Source of the DNA: Chloroflexota bacterium
GTDB taxonomy: Bacteria; Chloroflexota; Anaerolineae; Anaerolineales; Villigracilaceae
Direction of reading: 5' to 3'
Assembly: GCA_040754535.1 (NCBI GenBank)
Contig: JBFMCC010000023.1
Location: 28,570-92,569, forward strand
DNA length: 64,000 bases
Shown: positions 2,079 through 54,701 of the stretch, one piece after another
How positions within the stretch are numbered: position 1 is the stretch's first letter
Layout: every line of letters starts with the position of its first letter
The notes under the pieces: generated by a model
The model's database searches: none
Told to the model about the DNA's origin: nothing
The model's input: only the letters and a program-made list of their open reading frames with translations
Program-made: the position numbers and the translations under genes

Positions 2079-2375
2079 ATGGAATTCATCTTCGAATGGG
2101 ACGCGAGCAAAGCAAGGATGAACCTCGCAAAACACAAGGTCCGTTTTGAGGAAGCGCAGACTATTTTTGCAGACCCTTTACTTGTCACTTTCCCTGATGA
2201 TTTCCACTCAAGGATGGAAGAACGGTTTATCAGTATCGGCATGTCAACGCGGGAACGGATGTTGCTTGCAGTGCATACGGAGCGTGAAGAAATCGGTGAA
2301 CGTATTGTAATTCGAATCATCAGTTGCCGAAAAGCAACGACCTCTGAAAGAAAAATCTATGAAGAAAACAAATAA
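2079..2375 (+). CDS. brnT: BrnT toxin (DUF497 family ribonuclease toxin)
   Basis: MEFIFEWDASKARMNLAKHKVRFEEA...FISIGMS...RIISCRKATTSERKIYE matches the BrnT consensus. TATAAT sits 7 bp upstream of the ATG (leaderless-like). Confidence 0.8.
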   Translation: MEFIFEWDASKARMNLAKHKVRFEEAQTIFADPLLVTFPDDFHSRMEERFISIGMSTRERMLLAVHTEREEIGERIVIRIISCRKATTSERKIYEENK

Positions 2376-10949: not shown

Positions 10950-11954
10950 CTACTCTTCGCCTTCCGGCTCGCGGCCGGGACGCAGTTCCTTCTCGTAGAT
11001 GACGTACTCGTTGGCGACGTGCATCCCGGCTTTCTGGTATAGGCGCGTCGCGCCGGTCGGGTTTTGCGCGTCCACACCGAGGCCGATGGTCTTCATGCCG
11101 CGGCGGTGGAACTCGCCGAAGGAGTGATACAACAACGCGAGGCCGAGTCCGCGCTTGCGCCAGGGGCGGCGGACTCCCAGCGTCCCCACCCAGCCGATGC
11201 CCATGCGGAAGCGGCACAGCGAGTAGCCCGCGATCTGGTCCCCGTCCCAGGCCATGAACCACAACGACGGGTCGAAATCGTCGCGGCCGGTCATGCGGTG
11301 CTGCCAGGTTTCGTACGTGCCCGGGGTGTGACCCCAGTGATCGGAGAAGGCTTCCTCGTGCGCTTCGAAAACGGCGCGGTTCTGCTCGTCCAGCGCGAAC
11401 GGACGGAGTTCCACATTCTCCGGCCAGGCCGGCGCGGGCGGCGCGCCGTCGAGGGTGATCTCCATGCGCCACGAATAGCGGACGGCGCGATAGCCCTCGT
11501 TCTCGTGCATCCGGCGTCCGAGGGTGTCCGTGGCGGCCATGCCGTTGCGGATGTAAACGCGCAGGTCCAGCGCGGCCAATTGCACCTCTTCACGAGCGCG
11601 GGCTTCGAGGGCGCGCAGCATGGCAGTGCCGATTCCGTTGCCGAGATACGTCGGGTGGACGTAGCCGTCGCCGTTCAGCGAGGCGTGGGCGTGGAGGTTC
11701 ACGAACTCCTCGTAGCCGACCACGCGGCCGTCCGCGGCGGCGACCACCCACGCGTCGCGCTCGAGGGTGAAGCCGGGGTTCTTCCATTCGCGGGCCAGTT
11801 CCTCCGGGGTGACGGCCACGGTCGGGTCGCCGTCGGCGGTGCACACGTCCAGGATCAATTGCGCGACCGGCGCGAGGTCCGCCCACGAAGCGGGGCGCAG
11901 GCTGAAGCCCGGCGCGAGGATTTCATTCAGGATTGTGTCAGTTTTTGTTCCCAT
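10950..11954 (-). CDS. tandem-GNAT acetyltransferase (MshD-like two-domain architecture)
   Basis: 334 aa with two GNAT cores (…GNGIGTAML… and …RKRGLGLALL…). Confidence 0.7.
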   Translation of the reverse strand: MGTKTDTILNEILAPGFSLRPASWADLAPVAQLILDVCTADGDPTVAVTPEELAREWKNPGFTLERDAWVVAAADGRVVGYEEFVNLHAHASLNGDGYVHPTYLGNGIGTAMLRALEARAREEVQLAALDLRVYIRNGMAATDTLGRRMHENEGYRAVRYSWRMEITLDGAPPAPAWPENVELRPFALDEQNRAVFEAHEEAFSDHWGHTPGTYETWQHRMTGRDDFDPSLWFMAWDGDQIAGYSLCRFRMGIGWVGTLGVRRPWRKRGLGLALLYHSFGEFHRRGMKTIGLGVDAQNPTGATRLYQKAGMHVANEYVIYEKELRPGREPEGEE

Positions 11955-26605: not shown

Positions 26606-26677
26606 TGCGGGAGTCGCCAAGCGGTAAGGCGTCAGCCTTCCAAGCTGATATGCGCGGGTTCGAATCCCGTCTCCCGC
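26606..26677 (+). tRNA. tRNA-Gly (anticodon UCC)
   Basis: Acceptor GCGGGAG/CTCCCGC. Anticodon loop CTTCCAA, T-loop TTCGAAT, discriminator T. CCA is not encoded. Confidence 0.85.
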
Positions 26678-26684
26678 TCTCTCT

Positions 26685-26745
26685 CTCGGTTGAAGGTTTC
26701 AGGTTGAAAGTTGAAGGAAGATTTCGACTTTCAACCTGAAACCGC
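26685..26745 (+). other. perfect 17-bp inverted repeat (hairpin) between the two tRNAs
   Basis: ggtttcaggttgaaagt ... actttcaacctgaaacc with a 15-nt loop. Confidence 0.7.
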
Positions 26746-26748
26746 CCC

Positions 26749-26821
26749 GGGCTCGTGGCGCAGTGGTTAGCGCAGGCGACTCATAATCGCTTGGTCGCAG
26801 GTTCGAATCCTGCCGGGCCCA
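26749..26821 (+). tRNA. tRNA-Met elongator type (anticodon CAU; tRNA-Ile2 not excluded)
   Basis: Acceptor GGGCTCG/CGGGCCC. Anticodon loop CTCATAA, T-loop TTCGAAT, discriminator A. No initiator features. Confidence 0.85.
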
Positions 26822-26955
26822 CTTTTGATTTAAGCAAATGCTCGCCGGCCCCCATTCAGGGGATGATATCCGAATCCCGCCGGGCCCACTTTTGATTTAA
26901 GCAAGTGCCCGCCGGCCCCCATTCAGGGGATGATATCCGAATCCTGCCCGACCCA
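26822..26955 (+). repeat. two tandem ~67-bp units each ending in a degenerate copy of the tRNA-Met 3' end (att-like scars)
   Basis: cacttttgatttaagcaa(a/g)tgc(t/c)cgccggcccccattcaggggatgatatccgaatcc(c/t)gcc(g/c)g(g/a)ccca repeats the tRNA T-arm/acceptor (ggttcgaatcctgccgggccca). Confidence 0.7.
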
Positions 26956-27047
26956 ATTGGTTTGACATGCTATTGCCGGTTTGTACAGAGCGCGGGAGCA
27001 AAAACGCGGTTCTAAGTCTAAGTTGAAATTGAATTATAAATTGATAC

Positions 27048-27076
27048 TTGACAAATGATTCACGACCTTATAGTAT
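27048..27076 (+). promoter_or_regulatory. candidate promoter for radical-SAM gene
   Basis: TTGACA with TATAGT/TAGTAT 15-17 nt downstream. Confidence 0.4.
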
Positions 27077-27185
27077 TGAACAAGTTTCATTAACTCGTGG
27101 GCAAAATTTTAGTGGTACGGGGATCATTGACTAAACCGGCGAAATCCGGTTCATGAATCTTTTCTGAATTCCATAGGAGTCTCCG

Positions 27186-28430
27186 GTGAAACCCTCATCC
27201 ATCCTTGCCGGAAAAGTATATGTCGAGGCCGTGCATGCTGCGTGTAATCGCAGGAAGCTTGACGCCCAAAAAATTGCGTCGTTTTTTGAAAACAACGGAT
27301 ACAGGATCGTAAGGGACCCGGGGGACGCAGATGTGATGTTGTTGATTACTTGCGCGGTTTCGCTCGAAAGAGAAGCCAGCTCGATAAGCCGGATCCATCA
27401 TCTCAAAAAATACGGCGGGGAGTTAATCGTAAGCGGATGCCTTCCGGCGATAAACAAGCAAAAGTTGTCGTCCGTACACAGCGGAGTCAGTATTCCAACG
27501 TCGGAACTCAGTAAACTGGACGACTATTTCCCGAATATGCAGGTCAAGTTCACAGAACTCGGAGACGCGAACCGCTACTGGCCCTCTTATGAAAAGATGT
27601 TCGGTTATCAGTTCTTCCAGGTCGCCGTTGAGAAAATAAAATCCTTCAGGAGACTGCCGCTTAATTACATTATCAAAAAAGAAATCCCGAGATTAATCAA
27701 CCGAACGATTATAAGGAGGAGTGCGGCGGAGATCGAGCCATTTTCCATCAGAATCTCCTGGGGGTGCAACCACCAATGCGCATATTGCGGTATCCGGTCT
27801 GCCGTGGGTAAATTCCACAGCAAACCGCTGGAAACCTGCCGCGCCGAATTCGCCGAGGGCCTGAACAAAGGTTACAGAGAATTCGAACTGATAGCGGACG
27901 ATGTCGGGGCCTACGGCGTTGATATTGGCAAGACATTTCCAGATCTCTTGAATTCCCTGCTCGATGTAAAGGGTAATTACACTATCCAAATCTGGAATCT
28001 CTCCCCTATATGGCTGGTCAAATACCAGGAGGCTTTTGCTCCAATCCTGAAAACGAAGAAAATCAGCGGAATCCATTATCCCGTCCAATCCGGCAGTGGA
28101 AAAATGCTTAAAGCCATGAATCGATACAGCAACGTGGAAAAGATCAGGGATTCGGTGAGGTTTTTAAGAAAGCATTTCCCTTCAATCTCAGTGACCACCG
28201 ACCTGATTGTCGGATACCCTGGAGAGACCGACGAAGACGTTACGGCAACCATCGAGTTTCTCGGCAGTGCTGATTTCGATATCGTCCATATCTTCACATA
28301 CAAGGATGTTCCGAATACGATCGCCTACGCGGCGCAGGATAAGATACCCCCCAATATTATCGAACAACGGGTCAGCAGGCTCCAGCATGGACTGGACGCA
28401 ATGAGCACAGACTATTTAGTTATTGCCTGA
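27186..28430 (+). CDS. radical SAM methylthiotransferase-like enzyme (MiaB/RimO family, no TRAM domain)
   Basis: N-terminal MTTase Cys triad (AACNRR, ITCAV, SGCLP). Radical-SAM motif ISWGCNHQCAYC. ~50% GC. The C-terminus is too short for a TRAM domain. GTG start with an AGGAGT RBS. Confidence 0.75.
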   Translation: MKPSSILAGKVYVEAVHAACNRRKLDAQKIASFFENNGYRIVRDPGDADVMLLITCAVSLEREASSISRIHHLKKYGGELIVSGCLPAINKQKLSSVHSGVSIPTSELSKLDDYFPNMQVKFTELGDANRYWPSYEKMFGYQFFQVAVEKIKSFRRLPLNYIIKKEIPRLINRTIIRRSAAEIEPFSIRISWGCNHQCAYCGIRSAVGKFHSKPLETCRAEFAEGLNKGYREFELIADDVGAYGVDIGKTFPDLLNSLLDVKGNYTIQIWNLSPIWLVKYQEAFAPILKTKKISGIHYPVQSGSGKMLKAMNRYSNVEKIRDSVRFLRKHFPSISVTTDLIVGYPGETDEDVTATIEFLGSADFDIVHIFTYKDVPNTIAYAAQDKIPPNIIEQRVSRLQHGLDAMSTDYLVIA

Positions 28431-28594
28431 TTGGACGCAAAAACATGGTCAAGCCTGCATTCAAATCAATTTCTCGGCAACAATGTAAAGTACAGAAAAG
28501 GGCGCCGCGGAGACATGTGACTGCGTGCGACGCCCACTGCCGTGGCGGGCTGGTACCACATAGTCACCCATAGTGGAAAGACGTAAAAAGCGAC

Positions 28595-29518
28595 ATGATG
28601 AAAAATATCATTCCCCCGAGCGACCAGCCATCGGCATATAACATGTATGAGAACGTGGAATACTCGGAATATTGGAATGTCGCATATAGGAGGAAGCTCA
28701 ACGAACTGGAACATGCCATTGTTCAAGAATTATTGCCTGCGGCAGGCAACCGCATTCTCGATCTGGGTTGCGGCTATGGCAGGATGGCCGATTGCTATCT
28801 TGGTCGCTTCCGGGATGTCGTGATGTTCGACGGCTCCTTATCTCTGCTACGAACCGCGCAAAAAGTGACCGACGGGAAAGCGTATTATGTAGTGGGAGAT
28901 ATTAACTACCTCCCCTTTCATCCCGCCACATTTGACAACATACTGATGGTCCTAGTGCTTCACCATCTGACCGAACCGGCACGATGTTTGGATAATATTG
29001 GCAAAGTGATCTGTAAGGGCGGACGCTTTGTGATGACTTACAGGAACAAAAGAAACGCTCTATGGATGGCAAAATACCTTGTGGGGGCATTGCATGGGAA
29101 CCCGTTCACCAAAGAACCGCTCCTCCTGGAGGCCAACATATTCAATCATCATCCTGCTTACATAGCGGAGTTGATGACCGCCGCTGGCTTTGAAAGCCTT
29201 ACATATCGCGGGGCAGGCGTTTTCGACAAGGTCGAAAAATCACTGGGCAGGTTCGCCAAATGGGTGCCGCGCGGTGACTTTTGGACGCCCCTGTTCGGCA
29301 AATTATTCCTGGCCCCGTGGATATTCTGCCGGGGAATCTCCCAGAACAGGGAAACTCTCAGATCTTCCGAGAATGTGGAAAGCCTGCTGGCATGCCCGCG
29401 TTGCAAGTCGGAACTGGAACGTGAAGCAAGCGGGGTCAAATGCATGCGTTGCCGCACTAGGTATCCAAACCTCGATGGGATTATCGACATGAGAATCGAA
29501 CCACAGGCTACTTCATAG
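28595..29518 (+). CDS. class I SAM-dependent methyltransferase with C-terminal Trm112-like zinc ribbon
   Basis: LDLGCGYGRM is motif I. The C-terminal LACPRCKSELE...KCMRCRTRYPNLDGIIDM is a Trm112p-like zinc ribbon. Confidence 0.75.
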   Translation: MMKNIIPPSDQPSAYNMYENVEYSEYWNVAYRRKLNELEHAIVQELLPAAGNRILDLGCGYGRMADCYLGRFRDVVMFDGSLSLLRTAQKVTDGKAYYVVGDINYLPFHPATFDNILMVLVLHHLTEPARCLDNIGKVICKGGRFVMTYRNKRNALWMAKYLVGALHGNPFTKEPLLLEANIFNHHPAYIAELMTAAGFESLTYRGAGVFDKVEKSLGRFAKWVPRGDFWTPLFGKLFLAPWIFCRGISQNRETLRSSENVESLLACPRCKSELEREASGVKCMRCRTRYPNLDGIIDMRIEPQATS

Positions 29519-44348: not shown

Positions 44349-44356
44349 TCGTTTTT

Positions 44357-44423
44357 CACCACAGAGAGCACAGAGTCCTCGGAGAAAAAGAGAATCTCTG
44401 TGCTCTCTGTGGACTCCGTGGTG
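44357..44423. repeat. palindromic element CACCACAGAGAGCACAGAG...CTCTGTGCTCTCTGTGG(ACTCCGTGGTG)
   Basis: ~67-bp near-perfect inverted repeat right after the ammonia-lyase stop. Related to the elements at 56190-56420. Confidence 0.7.
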
Positions 44424-44442
44424 AAATCATTCAAGGCATGCA

Positions 44443-45495
44443 ATGAAACCATTTTTTCTCCTGGCCGTCGTTTTTCTCCTCGTCTTTGCCTGCGCGCCGA
44501 CCCCGGCCCAGACTCCCCCGGGCCTGCCCCCGTCGTCGACGAATACAGCCGCGCCGAGCGTGATCCCGCCGCCAGCCGATTCCGTGGCCCTGTCGCGCGG
44601 CGTCAACCTCGGCAACATGCTCGAAGCGCCGACCGAAGGCGAGTGGGGCCTGTTCGTGCAGGAGGAATACTTCGACCTCATCCAGGACGCGGGCTTCGAC
44701 TTCGTCCGTCTGCCCGTGCGCTGGAACACGCACGCCGAAGCGGACTGGCCTTACACAATTGACCCTGCCTTCTTCGCGCGAGTTGACGAGGTGGTCAATT
44801 GGGCGCTGGAACGCGACTTAACTATCATCGTTGACTTCCATCACTATGAAGAAATGGCCTGGGATCCGTGGAGTCACAAGGATAGATTTCTGGGAATCTG
44901 GGAACAGGTCGCCGAGCATTACAAGGATTATCCGCCCACTGTTTTATTCGAACTGCTCAACGAGCCAAACGATCAACTCGATGCGGCATTGTGGAACGGA
45001 TATGTAAGCGAAGCACTGGCCATCGTCCGCGAGACCAATCCCACGCGCGAGGTGGTCATCGGCCCGGTGTGGTGGAACGCGTACGACTGGGTCAGCACGC
45101 TGGATGTGCCCGACGACGGGCATATCATCGTCACGTTTCATTACTACCTGCCGTTCGAGTTCACGCACCAGGGCGCGGAGTGGGCGGGAGACGAAGCCGC
45201 GGGGTGGCTCGGCACAACCTGGGGCAGTGAGGCGGACAAGGCCGAATTGGTCAGCCGCTTCGACCTGGTGGCGGCGTGGGCGAAGCGAAAGAATGTGCGG
45301 ATTCTGCTTGGGGAATTCGGCGTATATCACAGGGCGGACATGACCGAGCGTGCCCGCTGGACGGCGTTCGTCCGCGAGCAGGCGGAAGCGCGCGGCTTCG
45401 CATGGGCCTACTGGGAATTCGGTTCGGGCTTCGGCGCGTACGATCCCGAGGCGCGCGAATGGAGGGAAGAATTGTTGAGGGCGTTGATACCGTGA
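44443..45495 (+). CDS. secreted glycoside hydrolase family 5 (cellulase-like)
   Basis: Signal peptide with lipobox-like FAC. NEP catalytic acid (LLNEPND) and nucleophile in GEFG. Confidence 0.8.
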   Translation: MKPFFLLAVVFLLVFACAPTPAQTPPGLPPSSTNTAAPSVIPPPADSVALSRGVNLGNMLEAPTEGEWGLFVQEEYFDLIQDAGFDFVRLPVRWNTHAEADWPYTIDPAFFARVDEVVNWALERDLTIIVDFHHYEEMAWDPWSHKDRFLGIWEQVAEHYKDYPPTVLFELLNEPNDQLDAALWNGYVSEALAIVRETNPTREVVIGPVWWNAYDWVSTLDVPDDGHIIVTFHYYLPFEFTHQGAEWAGDEAAGWLGTTWGSEADKAELVSRFDLVAAWAKRKNVRILLGEFGVYHRADMTERARWTAFVREQAEARGFAWAYWEFGSGFGAYDPEAREWREELLRALIP

Positions 45496-45594
45496 CAGTC
45501 CGAATGGACAGAATCTTAGGAAGAACAATGAACTGGGGTGGACTTGATGGCTCCACCCCAGGTTTGTGCGCGGTAGGCCACATGATATAAAGAT

Positions 45595-47385
45595 TTATTC
45601 TAAGGCTCTTACTTGCCAAACCTCCTTGGCAAGAGCTAATAAAATTTCGTGACGCCTCTTTATTGCTTCTTTACCCCATTCAGAAAAGCTTTGAAGGTAC
45701 TCATTTACTCGATTTATTGAGGTGTTGTCTCCGACGCTTTCGAGGTTGGCTATAGATTTCGTCAAGTAAATGTTTGATTTTGCATACTCCTTCACCTTAT
45801 CAGTGAAAAAATCCCTTTGAATAGATTCGTTAATCGGTTTTTCCAATAATGTTAAATTTCCTAACCTAGTCATATAATCATTGTACTCAACCTTATTCTC
45901 ACCTGAAAAATCTAGCACCATCTCCGTAGTAGGATCAACAGGCAGGATATGCTCAATATGTATTGAGGGTTTTAAATACGCCGCAATTGAACGGCTACTT
46001 TCATCGCCCATTCTTCTGGAGTCAAGGTATTGGGCAATTTTAGCTAAGAGATATTTTAGTTTATATTTCTGCATTGAGGATAATCTCAGATCCATGAAAT
46101 TCGTCTCAAAAGATCGGGCTCTGTTTTCAACATCTGTTCTAATTCTGCTTGCAATAAATTCATTTAGATTCTTATTGTTTTTGATCTTTCGTATTTCCTC
46201 AGTCCAAACAGAGAACTTCTTTTCAACATCGCGAGGCGCTTCTTTCGTGATATTGTAATAAAAGAGCAAAGTTTCTAACTGTACGAGCAAATGATCAAAT
46301 TGCTCCGGCTTCAGTCCTTTTGCTGAAAGGAGTAGTATGAAGTGTTGTTTAAATCCGCTACCAACCAAATTGTTAATATTTTCAAGATTGACATTGTCCA
46401 TGTTATGATATCGATTCCTTATTATGTCCATGTAAAATTCAGCGCCCTCCTGCATCCTTCTTACTAATCCAAAAGTGTCCGACTGGTAATTCAGTTTCTT
46501 CTCGTTACTAGTAAGCCAAGAGTAAATCTCATCCTCCCTAAGAATCTTGTCGCTTTTATCATCTTTTTCAATTTCATAATTTGCCATCATAAAATACCGT
46601 AGAAATCTCAATGGCTTTTCTTTCTCTCTTTGGCCAACCAGCGAGTCTTTAAATTTGTTCCACTCAGTTTTTAGTTTAGAGAACTCGTCACGGGAAATAT
46701 TACGAAATAACAAGTTCTTTAGTAGATCAACCTGATCTAAGCTAATTCCTCTTTCGTTTATGGTTTCAAAGATCTTTAGCGCATTGCCAATTTCAGGGGT
46801 CTCGATTTGGATTAGGACGACATTGTTGAGGAAATATCCAATGAATCTGCCCTTTTGCTCCATGTCATCTTTAAAATACTGCTCCAATAAAAATCGCACG
46901 GTTTTATGCGCCTCAAAAATAGTCTTTCCCGGCAACCCTTCGATCATCTTCAGATCAATTTCATCATCATTTTCTTTCTCGCACAAGTCGTAAAAAACGT
47001 TTTTTCCTTCGTACTGAATATCCACTTTGTACGATTGGATAGTCTTACCCTCGGAATTGATTGTTTCATCCCAAAGGAGCTTATGCAAAGCGCCCGAGTG
47101 TTGTGGTCGCTTTAGATTATTAATTATTAACGACAAAGTTATGAGCCTTTGTTGTCCATCAATTACCTCAAATTTATGTGGTGCTTCTTTTACTTTACAG
47201 ACAACTATGCTGCCAAGAAAATAGTCTGCCTTGGGATTGCTTGAAAAACTGTCGTAAATGTCATTGATTAGTTGTGTTACATGTCCTTCTTGCCAAACAT
47301 ATTCCCTTTGATAATCTGGGATCTGATAAAAGTTTTCGAACAGTTTTTGAATTGCGAACTGATTGAAAGTGATAGTGTTAGACAT
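45595..47385 (-). CDS. DUF262/DUF1524 protein, GmrSD-family type IV (modification-dependent) restriction endonuclease-like
   Basis: N-terminal DYQREYVW and VIDGQQRL (DUF262 DGQQR). C-terminal HIEHILP...LGNLTLLEKPINES (His-Me finger, DUF1524). ~35% GC versus ~65% in the flanks. Confidence 0.8.
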   Translation of the reverse strand: MSNTITFNQFAIQKLFENFYQIPDYQREYVWQEGHVTQLINDIYDSFSSNPKADYFLGSIVVCKVKEAPHKFEVIDGQQRLITLSLIINNLKRPQHSGALHKLLWDETINSEGKTIQSYKVDIQYEGKNVFYDLCEKENDDEIDLKMIEGLPGKTIFEAHKTVRFLLEQYFKDDMEQKGRFIGYFLNNVVLIQIETPEIGNALKIFETINERGISLDQVDLLKNLLFRNISRDEFSKLKTEWNKFKDSLVGQREKEKPLRFLRYFMMANYEIEKDDKSDKILREDEIYSWLTSNEKKLNYQSDTFGLVRRMQEGAEFYMDIIRNRYHNMDNVNLENINNLVGSGFKQHFILLLSAKGLKPEQFDHLLVQLETLLFYYNITKEAPRDVEKKFSVWTEEIRKIKNNKNLNEFIASRIRTDVENRARSFETNFMDLRLSSMQKYKLKYLLAKIAQYLDSRRMGDESSRSIAAYLKPSIHIEHILPVDPTTEMVLDFSGENKVEYNDYMTRLGNLTLLEKPINESIQRDFFTDKVKEYAKSNIYLTKSIANLESVGDNTSINRVNEYLQSFSEWGKEAIKRRHEILLALAKEVWQVRALE

Positions 47386-47388
47386 TTC

Positions 47389-47790
47389 CTACCTCTCTAC
47401 ACTCACTACGCTACCGAGCGCCTTCAAGTTACTCTGACGAACCAGCCGCGGGCTGTAGATGCGAATCTCCCTCGGTCCTTCGGCAGGCATGATCAGGACC
47501 GGCGTCTTACCGAATTTCTTGCGGGTCCGCGCGTATAATGCCTGCTCATCCTTGTCATGATCTACCAGTTTCCGATTGTGGATGGCGACAAATTCCCCTT
47601 CGTATTTTGCCCGTTGGCTGAGAGGCAACCCCAGCCACCATTCCTGTTCCGACTCTATTTTCACGCGCGCTGATATAGTGCGCTCTCGCCGAACGGCGGA
47701 TTGGAGATAATCCTCCACAGACATGCCGCGAAGCATTGCCTCTTTTTGGATCGTCCCGGCCAACTCTTCTGAAATTTTGAATGTCGCCAT
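47389..47790 (-). CDS. small RHH-like / DUF5678-like protein with C-terminal extension copied from the neighbouring gene
   Basis: N-terminal SVEDYLQSAV is RHH-like. The middle GEFVAIHNRKLVDHDKDEQALYARTRKKFGKTPVLI is DUF5678-like. The last ~15 aa, LKALGSVVSVER, mirror the C-terminus of 47834-48922. Confidence 0.5.
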   Translation of the reverse strand: MATFKISEELAGTIQKEAMLRGMSVEDYLQSAVRRERTISARVKIESEQEWWLGLPLSQRAKYEGEFVAIHNRKLVDHDKDEQALYARTRKKFGKTPVLIMPAEGPREIRIYSPRLVRQSNLKALGSVVSVER

Positions 47791-47833
47791 AATGATCCTC
47801 TATACAGATTCTACAACGTTCTCACGTTTCGTG

Positions 47834-48922
47834 CTATCTCTCCACACTCACCACGCCACCCAGCGCGTTCAAGCGCAGGGTCCACGTACTGCCAATGACG
47901 AACTGCTGAAACTCACTGACCGTGCCCGGCGAATAGGTCAACTGGCCCTTGCTGGTGGAGAAATACACGTTCAGGTCTTCGGTGGGCGATCCCTTGCGCT
48001 GGTTCCCGACGAGGAAGGGGTCAGCGTAGACCGGGAAATTATCATTCCCGTTGAGCGTCTCCGTGCGGACCGTCGTCCATTCGTCCACGGTGTAGGAGCA
48101 ATAATCCTGCGTCTCGGTGTGACACTCCTGCACCACCTCGCCGTAGCCGGTGCCGGTGTCCACCACCTTCTCTTCGCACACTTCCTGGCTCTCGGTGCGG
48201 CAGGACACATTGTACGCGTCCGAAGGCGGACTACCCGCCTGATTCGAATAATCGACCGGCTGGACTTCCTGAATCGGCACGGAGGTCTGCCAGGATACGT
48301 TTGTTACCGTCCCTGAAACAGTCGTCGTCGGGAAGATGAATAAAAATCCGACCACCACACAAATCACCACGATACAGGCCAGCACGCCGCCCAGGATCAG
48401 CCAGGGAGCGCGCGAGGCTTTCTTCGCGGGCGTGAGCGGCGCGGCGGGAGTCAATCCGCCCGGAGTGCTGAACGACATCGCGCCCGGCGCGGGAGGCGGA
48501 GCCGCGGAGGCCGCCAGCGGCAATGCCGCGCCGCAATTGGCGCACATCCTCCGCGTGGACGGGTTGGCCTGTCCGCAGTTCGTACAGGTGATCTCGCTCG
48601 GCGCGGCCTGGCGTTTCATTTCCTTTCCCGCGGCGCGCTGCCTGCCTTCCTTCAAGTCCCCGCCGCATTGCGAACACACGGTCGCGGTAGCGGGATTACG
48701 CGTGCCGCAGAACCCACAGTGGATGTCCGCGCCTGCGGCCGCGGCGCGCGCCACGTTCTCGTCCTGAATCAACTTCGCCTCGGCCGGGGCGTAGAACTGC
48801 ACATTATCCGGCTGGGGCGCGCCGCAGTTCTCGCAGGTCTTCTTCGGCCCGGGGTTGCGGCTGTTGCAGTTCGGGCACACCCATTCGAGTTGAATGAATC
48901 CTTTGGATCGTTTGGTTGCCAT
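47834..48922 (-). CDS. membrane protein with three N-terminal double-zinc-ribbon motifs and extracytoplasmic C-terminal domain
   Basis: CPNC..C.NCG, CGFCG..CSQCG and CTNCG..CANCG, then a TM (WLILGGVLACIVVICVVVGFLFIF) and a ~170-aa C-terminal domain. Confidence 0.65.
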   Translation of the reverse strand: MATKRSKGFIQLEWVCPNCNSRNPGPKKTCENCGAPQPDNVQFYAPAEAKLIQDENVARAAAAGADIHCGFCGTRNPATATVCSQCGGDLKEGRQRAAGKEMKRQAAPSEITCTNCGQANPSTRRMCANCGAALPLAASAAPPPAPGAMSFSTPGGLTPAAPLTPAKKASRAPWLILGGVLACIVVICVVVGFLFIFPTTTVSGTVTNVSWQTSVPIQEVQPVDYSNQAGSPPSDAYNVSCRTESQEVCEEKVVDTGTGYGEVVQECHTETQDYCSYTVDEWTTVRTETLNGNDNFPVYADPFLVGNQRKGSPTEDLNVYFSTSKGQLTYSPGTVSEFQQFVIGSTWTLRLNALGGVVSVER

Positions 48923-51863: not shown

Positions 51864-53090
51864 ATGCGGCGACTCCTTTTACTGTTACCACCACTTCTGC
51901 TGGCCTGTGCGGTCTTCAACCCGCTTCCCACAGACCCCGGGTCCGCTCCCGCGACCGCGACGTTTACCCCAGTCCCAACCGATACGCCCACCTTCACACC
52001 CGAGCCTCCCACCGCGACCCCGCTGCCGCCGGACGCCAGCACATTCCCCGACCCGAACGCGTATCAGTGGGCGCTGGTGACCGGCAGTCTGGTCCTGCCC
52101 GTTGACATCCAGAACGCGGGCGACGGCTCCGGGCGGCTGTTCATCGTCGAAAGACCCGGCACGATACGCATCTTCCAGAACGGGCAGCTGCTCCCAACCC
52201 CCTTCCTCGACATCACCGACCGCGTCTTCAGCGCCGCCTCGGAGCAGGGACTGCTTGGGCTGGCGTTCCATCCGCGCTATGAAGAGAACGGCCTGTTCTT
52301 CGTCAACTACATTGACGCGAACGAGAACACGGTCATCGCGCGCTTCCGCGTAAGCAGTGACCCCAACCTCGCCGACCCATTCAGCGAAGTGCAGGTGCTC
52401 TACGTCCGCCAGCCGTTCTGGAATCACAACGGCGGCGTGCTGGCCTTCGGCCCGGACGGTTATCTGTATCTCGGTCTTGGCGATGGCGGCTCCGGCGGCG
52501 ATCCGCAGGGCAATGCCCAATCGCTCGATACCCTGCTTGGCAAAATCCTGCGCATTGACGTGGATCACGGCGACCCCTACACCATCCCGCCCGGCAATCC
52601 CTTCGGCAGTGAGATCTGGGCGTACGGCCTGCGCAATCCGTGGCGCTTCTCCTTCGATATGCGCACGGGCAATCTATACATCGGCGACGTGGGGCAGGGT
52701 GAATGGGAGGAGATTGACGTGGCTCCGGCCGGCGTCGGCGGGTTGAATTTTGGCTGGAACTATCGCGAGGGCGGGCATCCCTATAAGGGACAGCCCCCGG
52801 CCGGGGTCCAATTGGTGGAACCGATTGCGGAGTACAGTCACGGGGAAGGGTGTTCGGTCACCGGCGGCGTAGTCTATCGCGGCACGGCGCTGCCCGCCTG
52901 GCAGGGAATCTACCTGTACGGAGACTATTGCTCCGGCCTGATCTGGGGCATCCTGCCCGCGGACCTGGGTCAGAACGCTCAGATTTTGTTCGACACCCTT
53001 TTCAACATCTCCACCTTCGGGCAGGACGAGGCGGGTGAAATCTATCTCGCCAATTATGGCGGGGAGGTCTATCGGCTGACGACCCGCTAG
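51864..53090 (+). CDS. PQQ-dependent soluble sugar dehydrogenase (glucose/sorbosone dehydrogenase family) lipoprotein
   Basis: Lipobox LLAC with a Pro/Thr linker. Beta-propeller GSDH motifs (GLLGLAFHP, NHNGG, GDGG..GDPQ). Confidence 0.8.
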   Translation: MRRLLLLLPPLLLACAVFNPLPTDPGSAPATATFTPVPTDTPTFTPEPPTATPLPPDASTFPDPNAYQWALVTGSLVLPVDIQNAGDGSGRLFIVERPGTIRIFQNGQLLPTPFLDITDRVFSAASEQGLLGLAFHPRYEENGLFFVNYIDANENTVIARFRVSSDPNLADPFSEVQVLYVRQPFWNHNGGVLAFGPDGYLYLGLGDGGSGGDPQGNAQSLDTLLGKILRIDVDHGDPYTIPPGNPFGSEIWAYGLRNPWRFSFDMRTGNLYIGDVGQGEWEEIDVAPAGVGGLNFGWNYREGGHPYKGQPPAGVQLVEPIAEYSHGEGCSVTGGVVYRGTALPAWQGIYLYGDYCSGLIWGILPADLGQNAQILFDTLFNISTFGQDEAGEIYLANYGGEVYRLTTR

Positions 53091-53252
53091 AACGGAGTCC
53101 AACATCTCCCGACGCTGGCGCCAAAGTCTGGCCCTTTGCAGGGTGCTTCGCGAAGACTTTGGACTCCGCACCTAGCCGATCTTGCCGCCCAAACCGGATA
53201 ATTGCGAGATAAGTCATCCAAAAATCGAGCCGATTGTCACCCGTAAAATTGT

Positions 53253-53283
53253 GACGCCTGACACTGGCAGGCGTCTTTTGTTT
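53253..53283 (+). terminator. intrinsic terminator
   Basis: gacgcctg-acactgg-caggcgtc + ttttgttt. Confidence 0.65.
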
Positions 53284-53321
53284 CCCGTACACTAGGAGTA
53301 CAAAATCGTCAGGAGGCAGAT

Positions 53322-53537
53322 ATGGCAGTGCGGACCTGGCAAGTGGAAAAGATCGAGTACTGCGAGCACGTGGGGCACGAGATCGCGCTCGAAGCGGAAG
53401 TGGTCTATCCCGCCGACCACCTCCCCGACCAGCCGCGCGTGATCGCGCACCGCTGTTCGAGCGCTGTCGTCTGCAACCAGTTCGACAAGCCCGCGTGCGT
53501 CTGGTGCGGCACCAATCCTGACCACGATCCATTGTGA
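53322..53537 (+). CDS. small Cys-rich hypothetical protein (71 aa)
   Basis: AGGAGG RBS 7 bp upstream. Contains C14, C45, C51, C59 and C62. Confidence 0.5.
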   Translation: MAVRTWQVEKIEYCEHVGHEIALEAEVVYPADHLPDQPRVIAHRCSSAVVCNQFDKPACVWCGTNPDHDPL

Positions 53538-53771
53538 ACAAAACGGGCAAGCGCCCGCTTTGCAAACTCTCTCCTCCCTCTGAGTTGGTCAAGGCCATCC
53601 CGCGCGAAATCGCGGGATGCGCCGTTAAAAGGGACGCGCCGAACGCGTTCGAGAAATAACGGAGTATAATTTACTCATACGCGAAGGCAGGCAATATGCA
53701 GAAGTTCGCGGTCTTTGTGACCAGGATCGAAAACTCCTAATTGCGGGATATCCTTAACCTGGAGGAAAACT

Positions 53772-54701
53772 ATGAAAAGGATGCTACTCGCTTTCATACT
53801 TATCATTTTGGCCTGTGCACCGATTCACATTGCACCAACAGTAGTTTCTTCTCCCACAACCTTGCCTACACTTGAATATACTCCCACGCCCATTCCACCT
53901 AGCAGGACACCCATTCCAGCCCACACGCGCACAGCGACGCCATATCCCGATGAAATTATGGACCAGCACGGGTTACCCATGCACTTGGTTCCCGGGGGGG
54001 ATTTCGTGATGGGTAGCGACAGAGGGCTTCCGAATGCCCAACCTGCCCACACCGTCAGGGTGGACACTTTTTATATGGACATGTTTGAGGTGGCAAACAT
54101 ATTCTATAACGAATGTGTAGAGGCGGGTGCATGTCAAGCACCCAAGAATGTGGAGTATTTTGAAAAAACCAAGTACGCGTTTTATCCAGTAGTCTATGTG
54201 GATTGGAGTATGGCAGAAACATATTGCAAGTGGCGTGGAGGCCGCTTACCTACAGAGGCAGAGTGGGAAAAAGCAGCGCGTGGTACAGATGAGCGTACAT
54301 ATCCATGGGGGGAAAACGTTAATTGTCGATATGCAAACTATATGTATTACCATGATGACCCGTTCTATATGTTTTGTGTGGATGACCTGTCATCCGTCGG
54401 CTACTCTGAAGCGGGGAAAAGTGCTTACAACATATATGACATGGCTGGCAATGCAACAGAGTGGGTCAGCAGCCTATATCTTCCCTATCCCTATGAACCA
54501 ACCGATGGGCGTGAAGACCCTAATAGCCCCGGCGAGCGTGTTGTGCGGGGAGGATCATGGTCAAGTAGCTCTACTGAGATTCACTCTTATCGTCGATTCG
54601 CCATGTCGCCGGCGGACTCAAGTGACCGGCTTGGTTTTCGTTGCGTTATCAATCCCGATTCATTGCCTGGAGCACCACAATTGCAAAGCATGATTCCCTA
54701 A
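53772..54701 (+). CDS. formylglycine-generating enzyme (FGE/SUMF1) family lipoprotein
   Basis: Lipobox ILAC. FGE-sulfatase domain with RGGSW. GC is lower than the flanks. Confidence 0.75.
   Translation: MKRMLLAFILIILACAPIHIAPTVVSSPTTLPTLEYTPTPIPPSRTPIPAHTRTATPYPDEIMDQHGLPMHLVPGGDFVMGSDRGLPNAQPAHTVRVDTFYMDMFEVANIFYNECVEAGACQAPKNVEYFEKTKYAFYPVVYVDWSMAETYCKWRGGRLPTEAEWEKAARGTDERTYPWGENVNCRYANYMYYHDDPFYMFCVDDLSSVGYSEAGKSAYNIYDMAGNATEWVSSLYLPYPYEPTDGREDPNSPGERVVRGGSWSSSSTEIHSYRRFAMSPADSSDRLGFRCVINPDSLPGAPQLQSMIP

What the first reader, a model, noticed from the sequence alone, without database searches (positions are those of the whole stretch)
45595..47385. Horizontally acquired GmrSD-like (DUF262/DUF1524) type IV restriction/defense gene at ~35% GC
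A single 596-aa ORF with a DGQQR-type DUF262 NTPase/ParB-like N-domain and a His-Me finger DUF1524 C-domain. Its GC is roughly 30 points below the flanking genome and it sits in a short intergenic slot between a GH5 gene and a zinc-ribbon membrane protein. It is a clear defense-island candidate, probably targeting modified phage DNA.
Basis: partly seen in the sequence, partly recalled or inferred. Interest (0 to 1): 0.7.

Follow-up and report, generated by a model that had tools for sequence, protein, structure and literature searches.

The report
Solitary GmrSD-type defence nuclease gene insertion
An intact, AT-rich, foreign-looking gene for a well-known type of anti-phage DNA-cutting enzyme (GmrSD family) is present in this Anaerolineales genome, inserted almost exactly as a bare coding sequence between a host gene's stop codon and its terminator; it is a real but fairly ordinary new member of a very large family.

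Summary
A 596-aa ORF lies at 45595-47385 (-). It has GmrSD_N/DUF262 (E 1.4e-38) and GmrSD_C/DUF1524 (E 1.5e-23) domains and every family motif. The AF2 model is confident, and its only significant PDB matches are DndI, SspE and BrxU. GC is 0.369 against about 0.59-0.63 around it (z = -5.1). That is 21-26 points below, not 30.

- A 133-aa DUF5678 ORF separates it from the zinc-ribbon gene.
- It is solitary, not in a defence island.
- Specificity for modified DNA is inferred, not shown. The best profile matches are PADLOC 'Orf5' and HEC-06. HEC-06 is a validated defence gene, but the text I read does not state its trigger.

New findings:
- The host is an Anaerolineales bacterium.
- The closest relatives (L004, L051) have clean empty sites.
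- The foreign DNA is about 1.8 kb and is essentially the CDS alone, bounded by ATGT on both sides. It sits between the old zinc-ribbon stop codon and its terminator hairpin.
- The gene is under purifying selection (dN 0.13, dS saturated).
- Its sister copy (79% aa) occupies the same slot in a distant Anaerolineales genome, with different junctions. That recurrence is unexplained.
- Clade relatives are solitary and AT-rich in every host examined.

Verdict: new member of a known kind, of modest interest.

The parts
45595..47385 (-). GmrSD-family (DUF262 + helical linker + DUF1524) defence nuclease CDS, 596 aa, GC 0.369
   Evidence: ORF. Pfam. PADLOC. AF2 model with pLDDT 89.8. Foldseek matches to DndI, SspE and BrxU. 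dN 0.13 with saturated dS.
46705..47346 (-). DUF262 / GmrSD_N ParB-Srx-like NTPase domain (aa 14-227). Carries Q26-R27, the DGQQR motif (aa 76-80, nt 47146-47160) and F206..N210.
   Evidence: One search gives the domain limits. One search shows the motif residues are invariant. Motif definitions come from PMC4619093.
45634..46122 (-). DUF1524 / GmrSD_C His-Me finger nuclease domain (aa 422-584). Carries IEHILP (E478-H479, nt 45949-45954), LGNLTLL (N510), N519 and W570..W590.
   Evidence: The equivalent E471A/H472A mutations abolish defence in HEC-06.
45584..47385 (-). Foreign low-GC segment relative to the empty sites in L004 and L051. It is about 1.8 kb and is essentially the CDS plus 11 nt after the stop. 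ATGT is present at both junctions (47382-47385 and 45580-45583).
   Evidence: blastn breakpoints. Junction alignments. L051 empty site. Sharp GC edges.
45533..45561 (.). Host-derived hairpin (10-bp stem) shared with L004 and L051. It is probably the terminator for the convergent zinc-ribbon/GmrSD and GH5 transcripts.
   Evidence: Folding gives -24.8 and -27.8 kcal/mol, z about -3.2. Homologous hairpins with changed stem bases occur in L004 and L051.
47389..47428 (-). Copy 2 of the ~40-nt repeat of the zinc-ribbon gene 3' end, which is the original ZnR terminus. It now encodes the C-terminal tail (..GSVVSVER*) of the DUF5678 fusion ORF and supplies a GAGAGG Shine-Dalgarno-like sequence 7-12 nt upstream of the GmrSD ATG.
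   Evidence: Read. Copies compared. Copy 2 is also present in L004 at 11888-11927. L051 shows the un-duplicated state.
47389..47790 (-). 133-aa DUF5678 ORF. It is a deletion derivative of a DUF5678 + retropepsin-like protease cassette. It is a separate, older insertion and not part of the GmrSD unit, but it is probably co-transcribed with GmrSD.
   Evidence: Pfam PF18929 at 1.2e-8.
47834..48922 (-). Zinc-ribbon membrane protein gene (ZnR). It is the conserved anchor gene of the slot, and repeat copy 1 lies at its 3' end (47834-47873).
44443..45495 (+). GH5 cellulase gene, convergent with GmrSD. It is an old resident of the slot.
   Evidence: Pfam PF00150 at 2.1e-55. GH5 is present in the slot of at least 10 other species, and a 136-nt 3' remnant remains in L004.

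Best explanation
The ORF encodes a functional single-chain GmrSD-family defence nuclease of the HEC-06-like branch. The likely mechanism is inferred from characterised relatives. The N-terminal ParB/Srx-like DUF262 domain binds and hydrolyses NTP through its DGQQR pocket and so controls the conformation or oligomeric state of the protein. That licenses the C-terminal His-Me (E-H-N-N) DUF1524 domain to cut or nick invading DNA.

The gene is solitary, and no cognate modification module lies near it or near its clade relatives. Self/non-self discrimination therefore most plausibly follows type IV logic: the enzyme attacks DNA carrying a modification that the host lacks. This step is inferred, and I give it roughly even odds.

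The gene is foreign to this Anaerolineales genome. About 1.8 kb of AT-rich DNA, essentially the bare CDS, was inserted after the split from the L004 lineage. It went into the few nucleotides between the ancestral zinc-ribbon stop codon and its terminator hairpin. It therefore has no promoter or terminator of its own. It is probably expressed by read-through from the zinc-ribbon/DUF5678 transcript, using a pre-existing GAGAGG sequence as its ribosome-binding site.
For: Shown:
- Both Pfam domains score well above their cut-offs.
- All Machnicka-2015 motifs are present and invariant in the clade.
- PADLOC gives full-length matches to Orf5 (1.6e-79) and HEC-06 (1e-69).
- HEC-06 is experimentally antiphage. 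Its DGQQR mutants (Q79A, R80A) and nuclease mutants (E471A, H472A) lose defence.
- The AF2 model has pLDDT 89.8. The only significant PDB matches are DndI (E 6.7e-16, TM 0.57), SspE and BrxU.
- Selection is purifying: dN 0.132 with saturated dS against the sister copy.
- Foreign origin: GC z = -5.1. The gene is absent from 50 of 50 other species anchored on the same zinc-ribbon gene. L004 (flanks 88-90% nt identical) and L051 have clean empty sites with the spacer and hairpin intact and no gene remnants.
- No sigma-70-like site lies upstream of the gene on its strand.
- The gene is solitary: no dnd, ssp or RM partner appears in the window or next to relatives in L001, L003, L055 and L056.
- Clade members are AT-rich in every host examined: gene GC 0.28-0.37 against flanks of 0.35-0.61.
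Against: - The trigger is unknown. The nearest solved structure is the phosphorothioate-sensing DndI. The P23-Y25-Q26 patch that DndI uses to sense phosphorothioate is conserved here, and only 64 kb of the genome could be checked for dnd/ssp genes.
- PADLOC's classical type IV profile (mREase_IV) matches only the N-terminal 90 residues.
- No expression data exist, and the promoter scan uses an E. coli-type consensus that may not fit Chloroflexota.
- The direction of the event (insertion here, or precise deletion in L004/L051 between the two ATGT copies) rests on parsimony and composition.
- Four-fold-site divergence from the sister copy in L001 equals that of the flanking core genes. That would also fit an ancient resident.
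Confidence: 0.72

Rival explanations
1. It is a phosphorothioate-sensing (SspE/DndI-like) effector. In that case it monitors a host DNA backbone modification written by dnd or ssp genes elsewhere in the genome and attacks DNA lacking it.
For: DndI is the only PDB sequence hit (E 1.4e-8). It is also the best structural match (TM 0.57), ahead of SspE and BrxU. The DndI phosphorothioate-sensing residues P23/Y25/Q26 have identical counterparts that are invariant in this clade.
Against: - None of the other 58 window ORFs hits a Dnd or Ssp profile at E<=1e-8.
- None of the relatives' contexts shows dnd or ssp genes.
- PADLOC SspE profiles match only aa 17-92.
- Identity to DndI is 18%.
- The PxYQR motif may be shared more widely by DUF262 domains (my recollection of the Pfam consensus; not tested here).
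- DndI without phosphorothioate is toxic to its host, which is hard to reconcile with a gene that spreads alone.
Confidence: 0.12
2. It is an ancient resident of the slot. It was acquired once by a common ancestor of the window and L001 lineages, inherited vertically, and lost in almost all descendants. It stayed AT-rich because a rarely recombining accessory gene escapes whatever keeps core genes GC-rich.
For: - The window and L001 copies are sister taxa.
- Both lie directly downstream of the same zinc-ribbon gene.
- Excess identity at four-fold sites (0.081) equals that of the flanking ZnR, HDAC and GSDH genes (0.05-0.09).
- The window copy has the highest GC3 among the eight clade copies measured (0.40), and the window has the most GC-rich flanks, as partial amelioration would predict.
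Against: - The junctions differ. In the window the gene lies before the ZnR terminator as CDS only. In L001 it lies after the terminator with a 170-nt AT-rich leader.
- Many independent losses would be needed, and at least the L004/L051 and L031 empty sites would have to be base-precise (0 of 50 other species carry the gene).
- GC3 is still 0.31-0.40 against 0.65-0.80 in the hosts, despite saturated synonymous divergence.
Confidence: 0.2
3. It is a selfish, self-mobilising nuclease gene, homing-endonuclease-like. On this view its own HNH activity promotes its insertion as a bare ORF, and defence is secondary or absent.
For: - The insertion is ORF-precise, with no recombinase, no terminal repeats and no shared flanking DNA.
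- Relatives occur as solitary genes inside operons or between two pieces of a gene (L056, L003).
- The same slot is hit in two lineages.
Against: - No homing-type target sequence is conserved between sites.
- Other relatives carry their own 100-280 nt leaders.
- Family members have demonstrated antiphage function that depends on the same motifs.
- Relatives are common on conjugative elements and (pro)viral contigs, which provide ordinary vectors.
Confidence: 0.05
4. It is an assembly artefact: a chimeric join of an AT-rich contig fragment into a GC-rich metagenome-assembled genome.
For: The composition changes abruptly. All related records are MAG contigs, so the source is probably a MAG too. 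The exact protein is not on record elsewhere.
Against: - Both junctions fall within a few nucleotides of the ORF ends, and host-homologous sequence continues immediately on each side.
- The sister gene sits in the same slot on an NCBI MAG contig (L001) and on a contig of the Logan assembly of run SRR25508694 (L002).
- The ORF is intact and in frame with a usable RBS.
Confidence: 0.03

Closest known systems
HEC-06 (GmrSD-like single-gene antiphage system; Payne et al. preprint 10.1101/2024.01.29.577857; PADLOC PDLC04154-04157)
   Same: PADLOC profiles match over the full length (aa 1-591, E 1e-69). The architecture is the same: DUF262, helical linker, DUF1524. The DGQQR and E-H nuclease residues whose mutation abolishes HEC-06 defence are present.
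   Different: HEC-06 was found embedded in Hma or type I RM systems, whereas this gene is solitary among metabolic genes. The best PADLOC profile is 'Orf5' (PDLC02688, 1.6e-79), and I could not trace the system behind that name.
Classical GmrSD type IV restriction enzymes (EcoCT596 GmrSD, Eco94GmrSD)
   Same: Both Pfam domains are present, together with all six conserved motifs of Machnicka et al. 2015: QR, VIDGQQR, FxxxN, (I/L/V)(E/D)H(I/L/V)xP, LGNLxLL..N and W..W. Both are single-chain enzymes that act alone.
   Different: PADLOC's type IV profile (mREase_IV) aligns only to aa 9-93, so this is a different branch. Specificity for glucosyl-hydroxymethylcytosine and NTP dependence are untested.
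DndI (PDB 9JFL) and SspE (7DRS, 6JIV), phosphorothioate-sensing DUF262/DUF1524 nucleases
   Same: They are the nearest solved structures (Foldseek E 6.7e-16 and 1.4e-12). DndI is also 596 aa. The DGQQR motif and the P-x-Y-Q patch are conserved.
   Different: Identity is 13-18%. No dnd or ssp partner genes are nearby, here or in clade relatives. SspE profiles match only the N-terminus.
BrxU (PDB 7P9K/7P9M), BREX-embedded GmrSD-family type IV enzyme
   Same: Same superfamily fold (Foldseek E 2.6e-6). Same NTPase-plus-HNH logic.
   Different: Identity is 12-13% and TM only 0.34. No BREX genes are present. BrxU's RLFDS nucleotide-binding motif is not evident; the corresponding region reads LINDIYDS.

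Membership tests
GmrSD family (Pfam PF03235 + PF07510; Machnicka et al. 2015) | N-terminal DUF262/GmrSD_N domain above the curated cut-off | tested here: met
   133.4 bits against a cut-off of 33.2, aa 14-227, profile positions 3-199 of 199.
GmrSD family (Pfam PF03235 + PF07510; Machnicka et al. 2015) | C-terminal DUF1524/GmrSD_C domain above the curated cut-off | tested here: met
   83.6 bits against a cut-off of 23, aa 422-584, profile positions 3-137 of 138.
GmrSD family (Pfam PF03235 + PF07510; Machnicka et al. 2015) | GmrS motifs: QR, (I/V)(I/V)DGQQRLTT, FxxxN | tested here: met
   Q26-R27, V74-I-D-G-Q-Q-R-L-I-T83 and F206-E-T-I-N210 are all invariant in alignment A5.
GmrSD family (Pfam PF03235 + PF07510; Machnicka et al. 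2015) | GmrD His-Me motif E/D-H-N-N, plus the W..W motif | tested here: met
   I-E478-H479-I-L-P, L-G-N510-L-T-L-L, N519 and W570...W590 are all invariant in A5.
GmrSD family (Pfam PF03235 + PF07510; Machnicka et al. 2015) | Overall fold shared with solved family members | tested here: met
   AF2 pLDDT 89.8. The only PDB matches with E<=1e-3 are DndI, SspE and BrxU.
GmrSD family (Pfam PF03235 + PF07510; Machnicka et al. 2015) | Modification-dependent, NTP-stimulated DNA cleavage | not testable with these tools
   Needs biochemistry or plaque assays.
HEC-06 (PADLOC) | Full-length match to the HEC-06 profiles | tested here: met
   PDLC04157 at E 1e-69 covers aa 1-591 against profile positions 1-556 of 558. 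Two further HEC-06 profiles score at 1e-66 to 1e-67.
HEC-06 (PADLOC) | Antiphage activity that depends on the DGQQR and EH residues | not testable with these tools
   The residues are present. Activity was shown only for the E. coli-tested homologue.
SspE / DndI phosphorothioate-sensing effectors | Genetic linkage to sspABCD or dndBCDE modification genes | tested here: not met
   The other 58 window ORFs give no Dnd or Ssp profile hit at 1e-8. Ten contexts of clade relatives show none. The rest of the genome is unseen.
SspE / DndI phosphorothioate-sensing effectors | Tyr-containing hydrophobic phosphorothioate-sensing patch in the N-terminal domain | tested here: inconclusive
   P23, Y25 and Q26 are present and invariant, matching DndI P23/Y25/Q26. 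They lie next to the family's conserved QR motif, so their presence may not be specific.
BrxU | Embedded in a BREX locus; RLFDS nucleotide-binding motif | tested here: not met
   The window has no BREX profile hits. No RLFDS motif can be read in the sequence.
Defence island | Clustering with other defence systems within about 10 kb | tested here: not met
   The neighbours are metabolic or housekeeping genes. The only located PADLOC hit besides GmrSD is a generic SAM methyltransferase 17 kb away. The same slot in other species holds no PADLOC-recognised genes.

The most novel reading that the evidence does not exclude
This GmrSD clade may move as a bare, promoterless ORF without any recombinase and repeatedly land next to the terminator of the same conserved zinc-ribbon gene in distantly related Anaerolineales. 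That would imply an unrecognised targeting or homing-like insertion mechanism, possibly driven by its own HNH nuclease or by terminator-hairpin structure. The alternative is simple illegitimate recombination into a permissive hotspot.
Probability: 0.07. Interest if true: 0.7.

Novelty: new member of a known kind. Interest (0 to 1): 0.3.

Why it matters
It adds a well-documented case of how a single defence gene enters a genome. Base-level empty-site comparisons show an ORF-sized piece of AT-rich DNA placed between a host stop codon and its terminator, where it borrows the host's transcription, ribosome-binding site and terminator. It also extends the HEC-06-like GmrSD branch into Chloroflexota, a phylum with few characterised phages or defence systems. 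The recurrence of sister copies in the same slot of two distant genomes, still un-ameliorated, bears on two questions: whether defence hotspots arise from targeting or from permissiveness, and why accessory defence genes stay AT-rich. None of this changes what is known about GmrSD enzymes themselves.

Tried and rejected
1. Terminal inverted or direct repeats, an integrase or an attC site around the gene. The repeat finder and junction reading gave only a 4-nt ATGT at both junctions. No mobility gene is present.
2. The ~40-nt repeat of the ZnR 3' end as att sites of a GmrSD island. Rejected. The repeats flank the older DUF5678(-protease) cassette, not GmrSD.
3. Window repeat copy 2 imported with donor DNA. 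Comparison with the ZnR 3' ends of all loci was inconclusive.
4. DUF5678 as a functional partner of GmrSD. Rejected. It is absent next to GmrSD in L001 and all other relatives, and present without GmrSD in L004 and L007.
5. GmrSD remnants in empty slots. blastx found nothing better than E 0.15.
6. dS-based dating. NG86 and YN00 failed because of saturation. The four-fold-site test replaced them and did not separate the scenarios.
7. Metagenome scan for more same-slot copies. It returned one unrelated locus at 56% identity.
8. An exact-protein look-up for the window protein found nothing on record.
9. NCBIfam gave no family.
10. Two literature look-ups for the PADLOC name 'Orf5' gave nothing useful. 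The phage range of HEC-06 is not in the text held.
11. The slot as a defence hotspot. Low-GC orphan ORFs in L026, L049, L009 and L025 have no Pfam or PADLOC assignment apart from one ArsR/Csa3-like HTH protein.
Full report
**1. The observation**

The ORF listing returns a 596-aa ATG-initiated ORF at exactly 45595-47385 on the minus strand. Its GC content is 0.369. All other 1791-nt windows of the 64-kb sequence average 0.586 (sd 0.043), and the lowest value elsewhere is 0.470, so z = -5.1. The change happens within about 100 nt at each end: 47300-47399 is at 0.34 and 47400-47499 is at 0.59. Among 59 greedily called ORFs it has the lowest GC3, 0.40, with the next lowest at 0.46.

Three details of the finding need correction. 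First, the deficit is 21 points against the window mean and 24-26 points against the neighbouring genes (0.61-0.63), not about 30. Second, the gene is not adjacent to the zinc-ribbon gene. A 133-aa ORF with a DUF5678 domain (47389-47790, minus strand) lies between them and ends 3 nt before the GmrSD ATG. Third, the slot is not a plain short intergenic region (see section 4).

**2. What the protein is**

Pfam gives GmrSD_N (PF03235, 133.4 bits, cut-off 33.2, aa 14-227) and GmrSD_C (PF07510, 83.6 bits, cut-off 23, aa 422-584).

The motifs that Machnicka et al. 2015 (PMC4619093) define for the family are all present:
- Q26-R27
- VIDGQQRLIT (aa 74-83)
- F206-x3-N210
- I-E478-H479-ILP
- LG-N510-LTLL
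- N519
- W570...W590

In an alignment of 32 clade members at 41-79% identity, every one of these residues is invariant.

AlphaFold2 run on that alignment gives a confident model (mean pLDDT 89.8, pTM 0.79). Foldseek against the PDB returns only three proteins with E<=1e-3: DndI (9JFL, E 6.7e-16, TM 0.57), SspE (7DRS and 6JIV) and BrxU (7P9M and 7P9K). All three are DUF262/DUF1524 defence nucleases. By sequence alone, only DndI is detected in the PDB (E 1.4e-8).

PADLOC gives full-length matches to 'Orf5' (PDLC02688, 1.6e-79) and to three HEC-06 profiles (1e-69 to 4e-66). The SspE profiles and the classical type IV profile (mREase_IV) align only to the first ~90 residues. NCBIfam has no model for the protein.

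HEC-06 was shown to be antiphage in E. coli. Defence was lost in the Q79A, R80A, E471A and H472A mutants, and these positions correspond to residues conserved here (preprint 10.1101/2024.01.29.577857).

The family is very large. There are 5311 hits at E<=1e-10 among the candidates scored. 1125 plasmid records carry a relative, mostly conjugative, and 305 stretches on IMG/VR contigs encode one.

**3. Is the gene functional?**

The ORF is intact. Against its closest homologue (P0001, 79% aa identity in alignment) dN is 0.132 while synonymous sites are saturated. That means strong purifying selection.

**4. Genomic history**

A scan of one genome per species with the lineage-specific zinc-ribbon protein (ZnR) returned 50 loci. 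49 are titled Chloroflexota, Anaerolineales or similar, and one is labelled Bacteroidota. The host is therefore an Anaerolineales bacterium. None of these 50 species carries a GmrSD homologue near ZnR.

The two closest relatives give base-level empty sites.

- L051 (ZnR 90% aa) has the ZnR stop, the spacer 'AATAAAAAGAAATGAGGAATGTAACC..', a hairpin, and then HAL.
- L004 (ZnR 93% aa; flanks 88-90% nt identical) has, in order: ZnR; a DUF5678 gene; a 128-aa retropepsin-like protease gene (PF13975 and TIGR03698); a second copy of the last ~40 nt of ZnR; the same spacer ('..GGAATGTAATTGG..'); the same hairpin; a 136-nt remnant of the GH5 3' end; and HAL.

The order of events is then as follows.
1. 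A DUF5678-protease cassette entered the 3' end of ZnR with a ~40-nt target duplication. This event is shared by L004 and the window.
2. In the window lineage the protease ORF was deleted almost exactly. DUF5678 now reads into repeat copy 2, which produces the ..GSVVSVER tail that mimics the ZnR C-terminus.
3. About 1.8 kb of AT-rich DNA was inserted into the spacer.

At the left junction the window reads GAGAGGTAGGAA-ATGT-CTAAC where L004 reads GAGAGGTAAAAAAAGAAGGA-ATGT-AATTGG. At the right junction, 11 nt after the GmrSD stop codon, the window reads ..TATATC-ATGT-GGCCTACC and then continues into the hairpin shared with L004 and L051.

The foreign DNA is therefore essentially the CDS alone (about 45584-47385), with ATGT on both sides. 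I found no integrase, no terminal repeats and no attC-like element. No remnants of the gene occur in the empty slots.

The hairpin at 45533-45561 folds at -25 to -28 kcal/mol (z about -3.2). It has homologues with different stem bases in L004 and L051, which fits a conserved terminator.

No sigma-70-like site lies upstream on the gene's strand. A GAGAGG sequence that already existed in the ZnR terminus sits 7-12 nt before the ATG. Expression by read-through from the ZnR/DUF5678 transcript is the economical inference.

**5. Not a defence island**

The genes within about 5 kb on either side are histidine ammonia-lyase, GH5, DUF5678, ZnR and a histone-deacetylase-family gene. Further along that side, blastn matches L001's OsmC, NYN and GSDH genes. 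Scanning the other 58 window ORFs against PADLOC at 1e-8 gave only the mad2, mad3, mad8 and ATPase-Toprim profiles. The mad2 hit is a generic class I SAM methyltransferase 17 kb away. I did not locate the other three. No dnd, ssp, BREX or RM genes were found.

**6. The slot and the clade**

In 24 species where both anchor genes are visible, the ZnR-to-HAL interval ranges from 85 bp to 9.2 kb. It holds GH5, UbiA, MFS transporters and other genes, plus occasional low-GC orphan ORFs (L026 at 0.34, L049 at 0.36) that have no Pfam or PADLOC assignment. It is a hypervariable region but not a recognisable defence hotspot.

Close GmrSD relatives elsewhere are also solitary:
- L056: between two permease genes of an ABC-transporter operon
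- L003: between two pieces annotated 8xMP
- L055: among housekeeping genes
- L057: on a conjugative element with MobL and a coupling protein
- L054: beside a BsoBI-type RM system
- L060: two genes upstream of a TIR-domain gene

In all of them the gene is AT-rich relative to its host: gene GC 0.28-0.37 against flanks of 0.35-0.61. No flanking DNA is shared between loci. The second-closest homologue (P0002, 70%) lies in a uniformly AT-rich contig (GC 0.33-0.36). That is a plausible donor-type background.

**7. The unresolved point**

The best homologue among 5.8 billion proteins (P0001, on L001 and L002) sits directly downstream of the same ZnR gene in a distantly related Anaerolineales genome. 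There the ZnR protein is 56-60% identical and the flanks are 67-69% nt identical. The two GmrSD copies are sister taxa. Their excess identity at four-fold degenerate sites (0.081) equals that of the flanking core genes (0.05-0.09).

That pattern would fit one ancient acquisition. Several observations argue against it:
- The junctions differ. L001 has the gene after the ZnR terminator, with a 170-nt AT-rich leader containing a TATAAT box and with a separate downstream hairpin.
- L001's own relatives lack the gene. In L031, ZnR, its hairpin and UbiA are separated by only 24 nt. L023 and L032 also lack it.
- GC3 remains 0.31-0.40 in hosts at 0.65-0.80.

I favour two gains into a permissive, insertion-prone terminator region between convergent genes. 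I cannot exclude an old resident that never ameliorated. A metagenome scan for more copies gave nothing useful.

**8. Mechanism and comparison with known systems**

What is shown: the domain architecture, the motifs, the fold, purifying selection, foreign origin and the insertion anatomy.

What is inferred from relatives: NTP binding and hydrolysis at the DGQQR pocket gates a conformational or oligomeric switch. That switch licenses the His-Me domain to cut or nick foreign DNA.

What is inferred from context: because the gene travels alone, type IV (modification-dependent) discrimination is more likely than phosphorothioate sensing. SspE and DndI work with linked modification genes, and DndI is toxic to its host without them. 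However, DndI is the nearest solved structure, and its P23/Y25/Q26 sensing patch is conserved here. I therefore put the type IV step at roughly even odds and the phosphorothioate-sensing rival at about 0.12.

**9. Verdict**

This is a real, intact, horizontally acquired, solitary GmrSD-family (HEC-06-like) defence nuclease gene. It is a new member of a known and very large kind. The interest is modest. It lies mainly in the ORF-precise insertion anatomy and in the recurrence of the same slot in two lineages.

Noticed in passing
window 47389-47873; L004 11046-11927: A small cassette (a DUF5678 gene with an RHH-like N-terminus, plus a 128-aa retropepsin-like clan AA aspartic protease in L004) is flanked by ~40-nt direct repeats of the zinc-ribbon gene's 3' end. 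That is an insertion with target duplication. In the window the protease ORF has been deleted almost exactly, creating a DUF5678 fusion ORF that ends in the zinc-ribbon C-terminal peptide. L007 has DUF5678 without the protease.
   Followed up: partly
window 2079-2375 and 2359-2673: A BrnT-family ribonuclease toxin (PF04365, 1.7e-26) is followed by an overlapping 104-aa ORF, which may be its antitoxin. Both have lower GC3 (0.46-0.51).
   Followed up: no
window 26607-29518: tRNA-Gly(TCC) and tRNA-Met(CAT) are followed by a 3-kb stretch at GC 0.46-0.49. The stretch encodes a MiaB-like radical SAM protein (UPF0004 + Radical_SAM) and a class I SAM methyltransferase that weakly hits PADLOC mad2. It may be another acquired segment.
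   Followed up: partly
window, ORFs not located: The window-wide PADLOC scan reported one ORF each matching mad3 (1.7e-31), mad8 (1.8e-12) and ATPase-Toprim_I-B (1.1e-9). The scan output does not name the matching ORFs, and none of the ten ORFs I then scanned individually matched these profiles; I did not locate them.
   Followed up: no
window 44354-44426: A 17-nt perfect inverted repeat (CCACAGAGAGCACAGAG / CTCTGTGCTCTCTGTGG), within 32-nt imperfect arms, lies between the histidine ammonia-lyase and GH5 genes. It is probably a terminator. Similar 'ACAGAGAG'-type short tandem repeats fill the ZnR-HAL slot of L005.
   Followed up: no
L023 8470-8700: Three tandem copies of a ~77-nt unit (TAATCTCCATGATGGAGACCTCCGGTCACTTCATGGCACAGGTCAGGAGACCTTGTGCCA...) occupy the slot between ZnR and UbiA. 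Their nature is unknown.
   Followed up: no
L026 12046-12681; L049 11060-11620; L009 11184-12320; L025 12335-12874: Other species carry their own low-GC orphan ORFs (GC 0.34-0.44 against 0.48-0.54 for the locus) in the same ZnR-to-HAL slot (directly after ZnR in L049 and L009). None has a Pfam or PADLOC assignment. L026 also has an ArsR/Csa3-like HTH protein there.
   Followed up: partly
L003 5098-8374; L056 4815-8654: A GmrSD relative sits between two ORFs that both hit the 8xMP family, which may be a split gene. Another sits between the two permease genes of an ABC-transporter operon with only 20 nt downstream. These suggest similarly tight single-gene insertions in other phyla.
   Followed up: no
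window 53002-54701: There is a second lower-GC3 patch (0.47-0.48). It contains an FGE-sulfatase-family gene and an unassigned 198-aa ORF.
   Followed up: no
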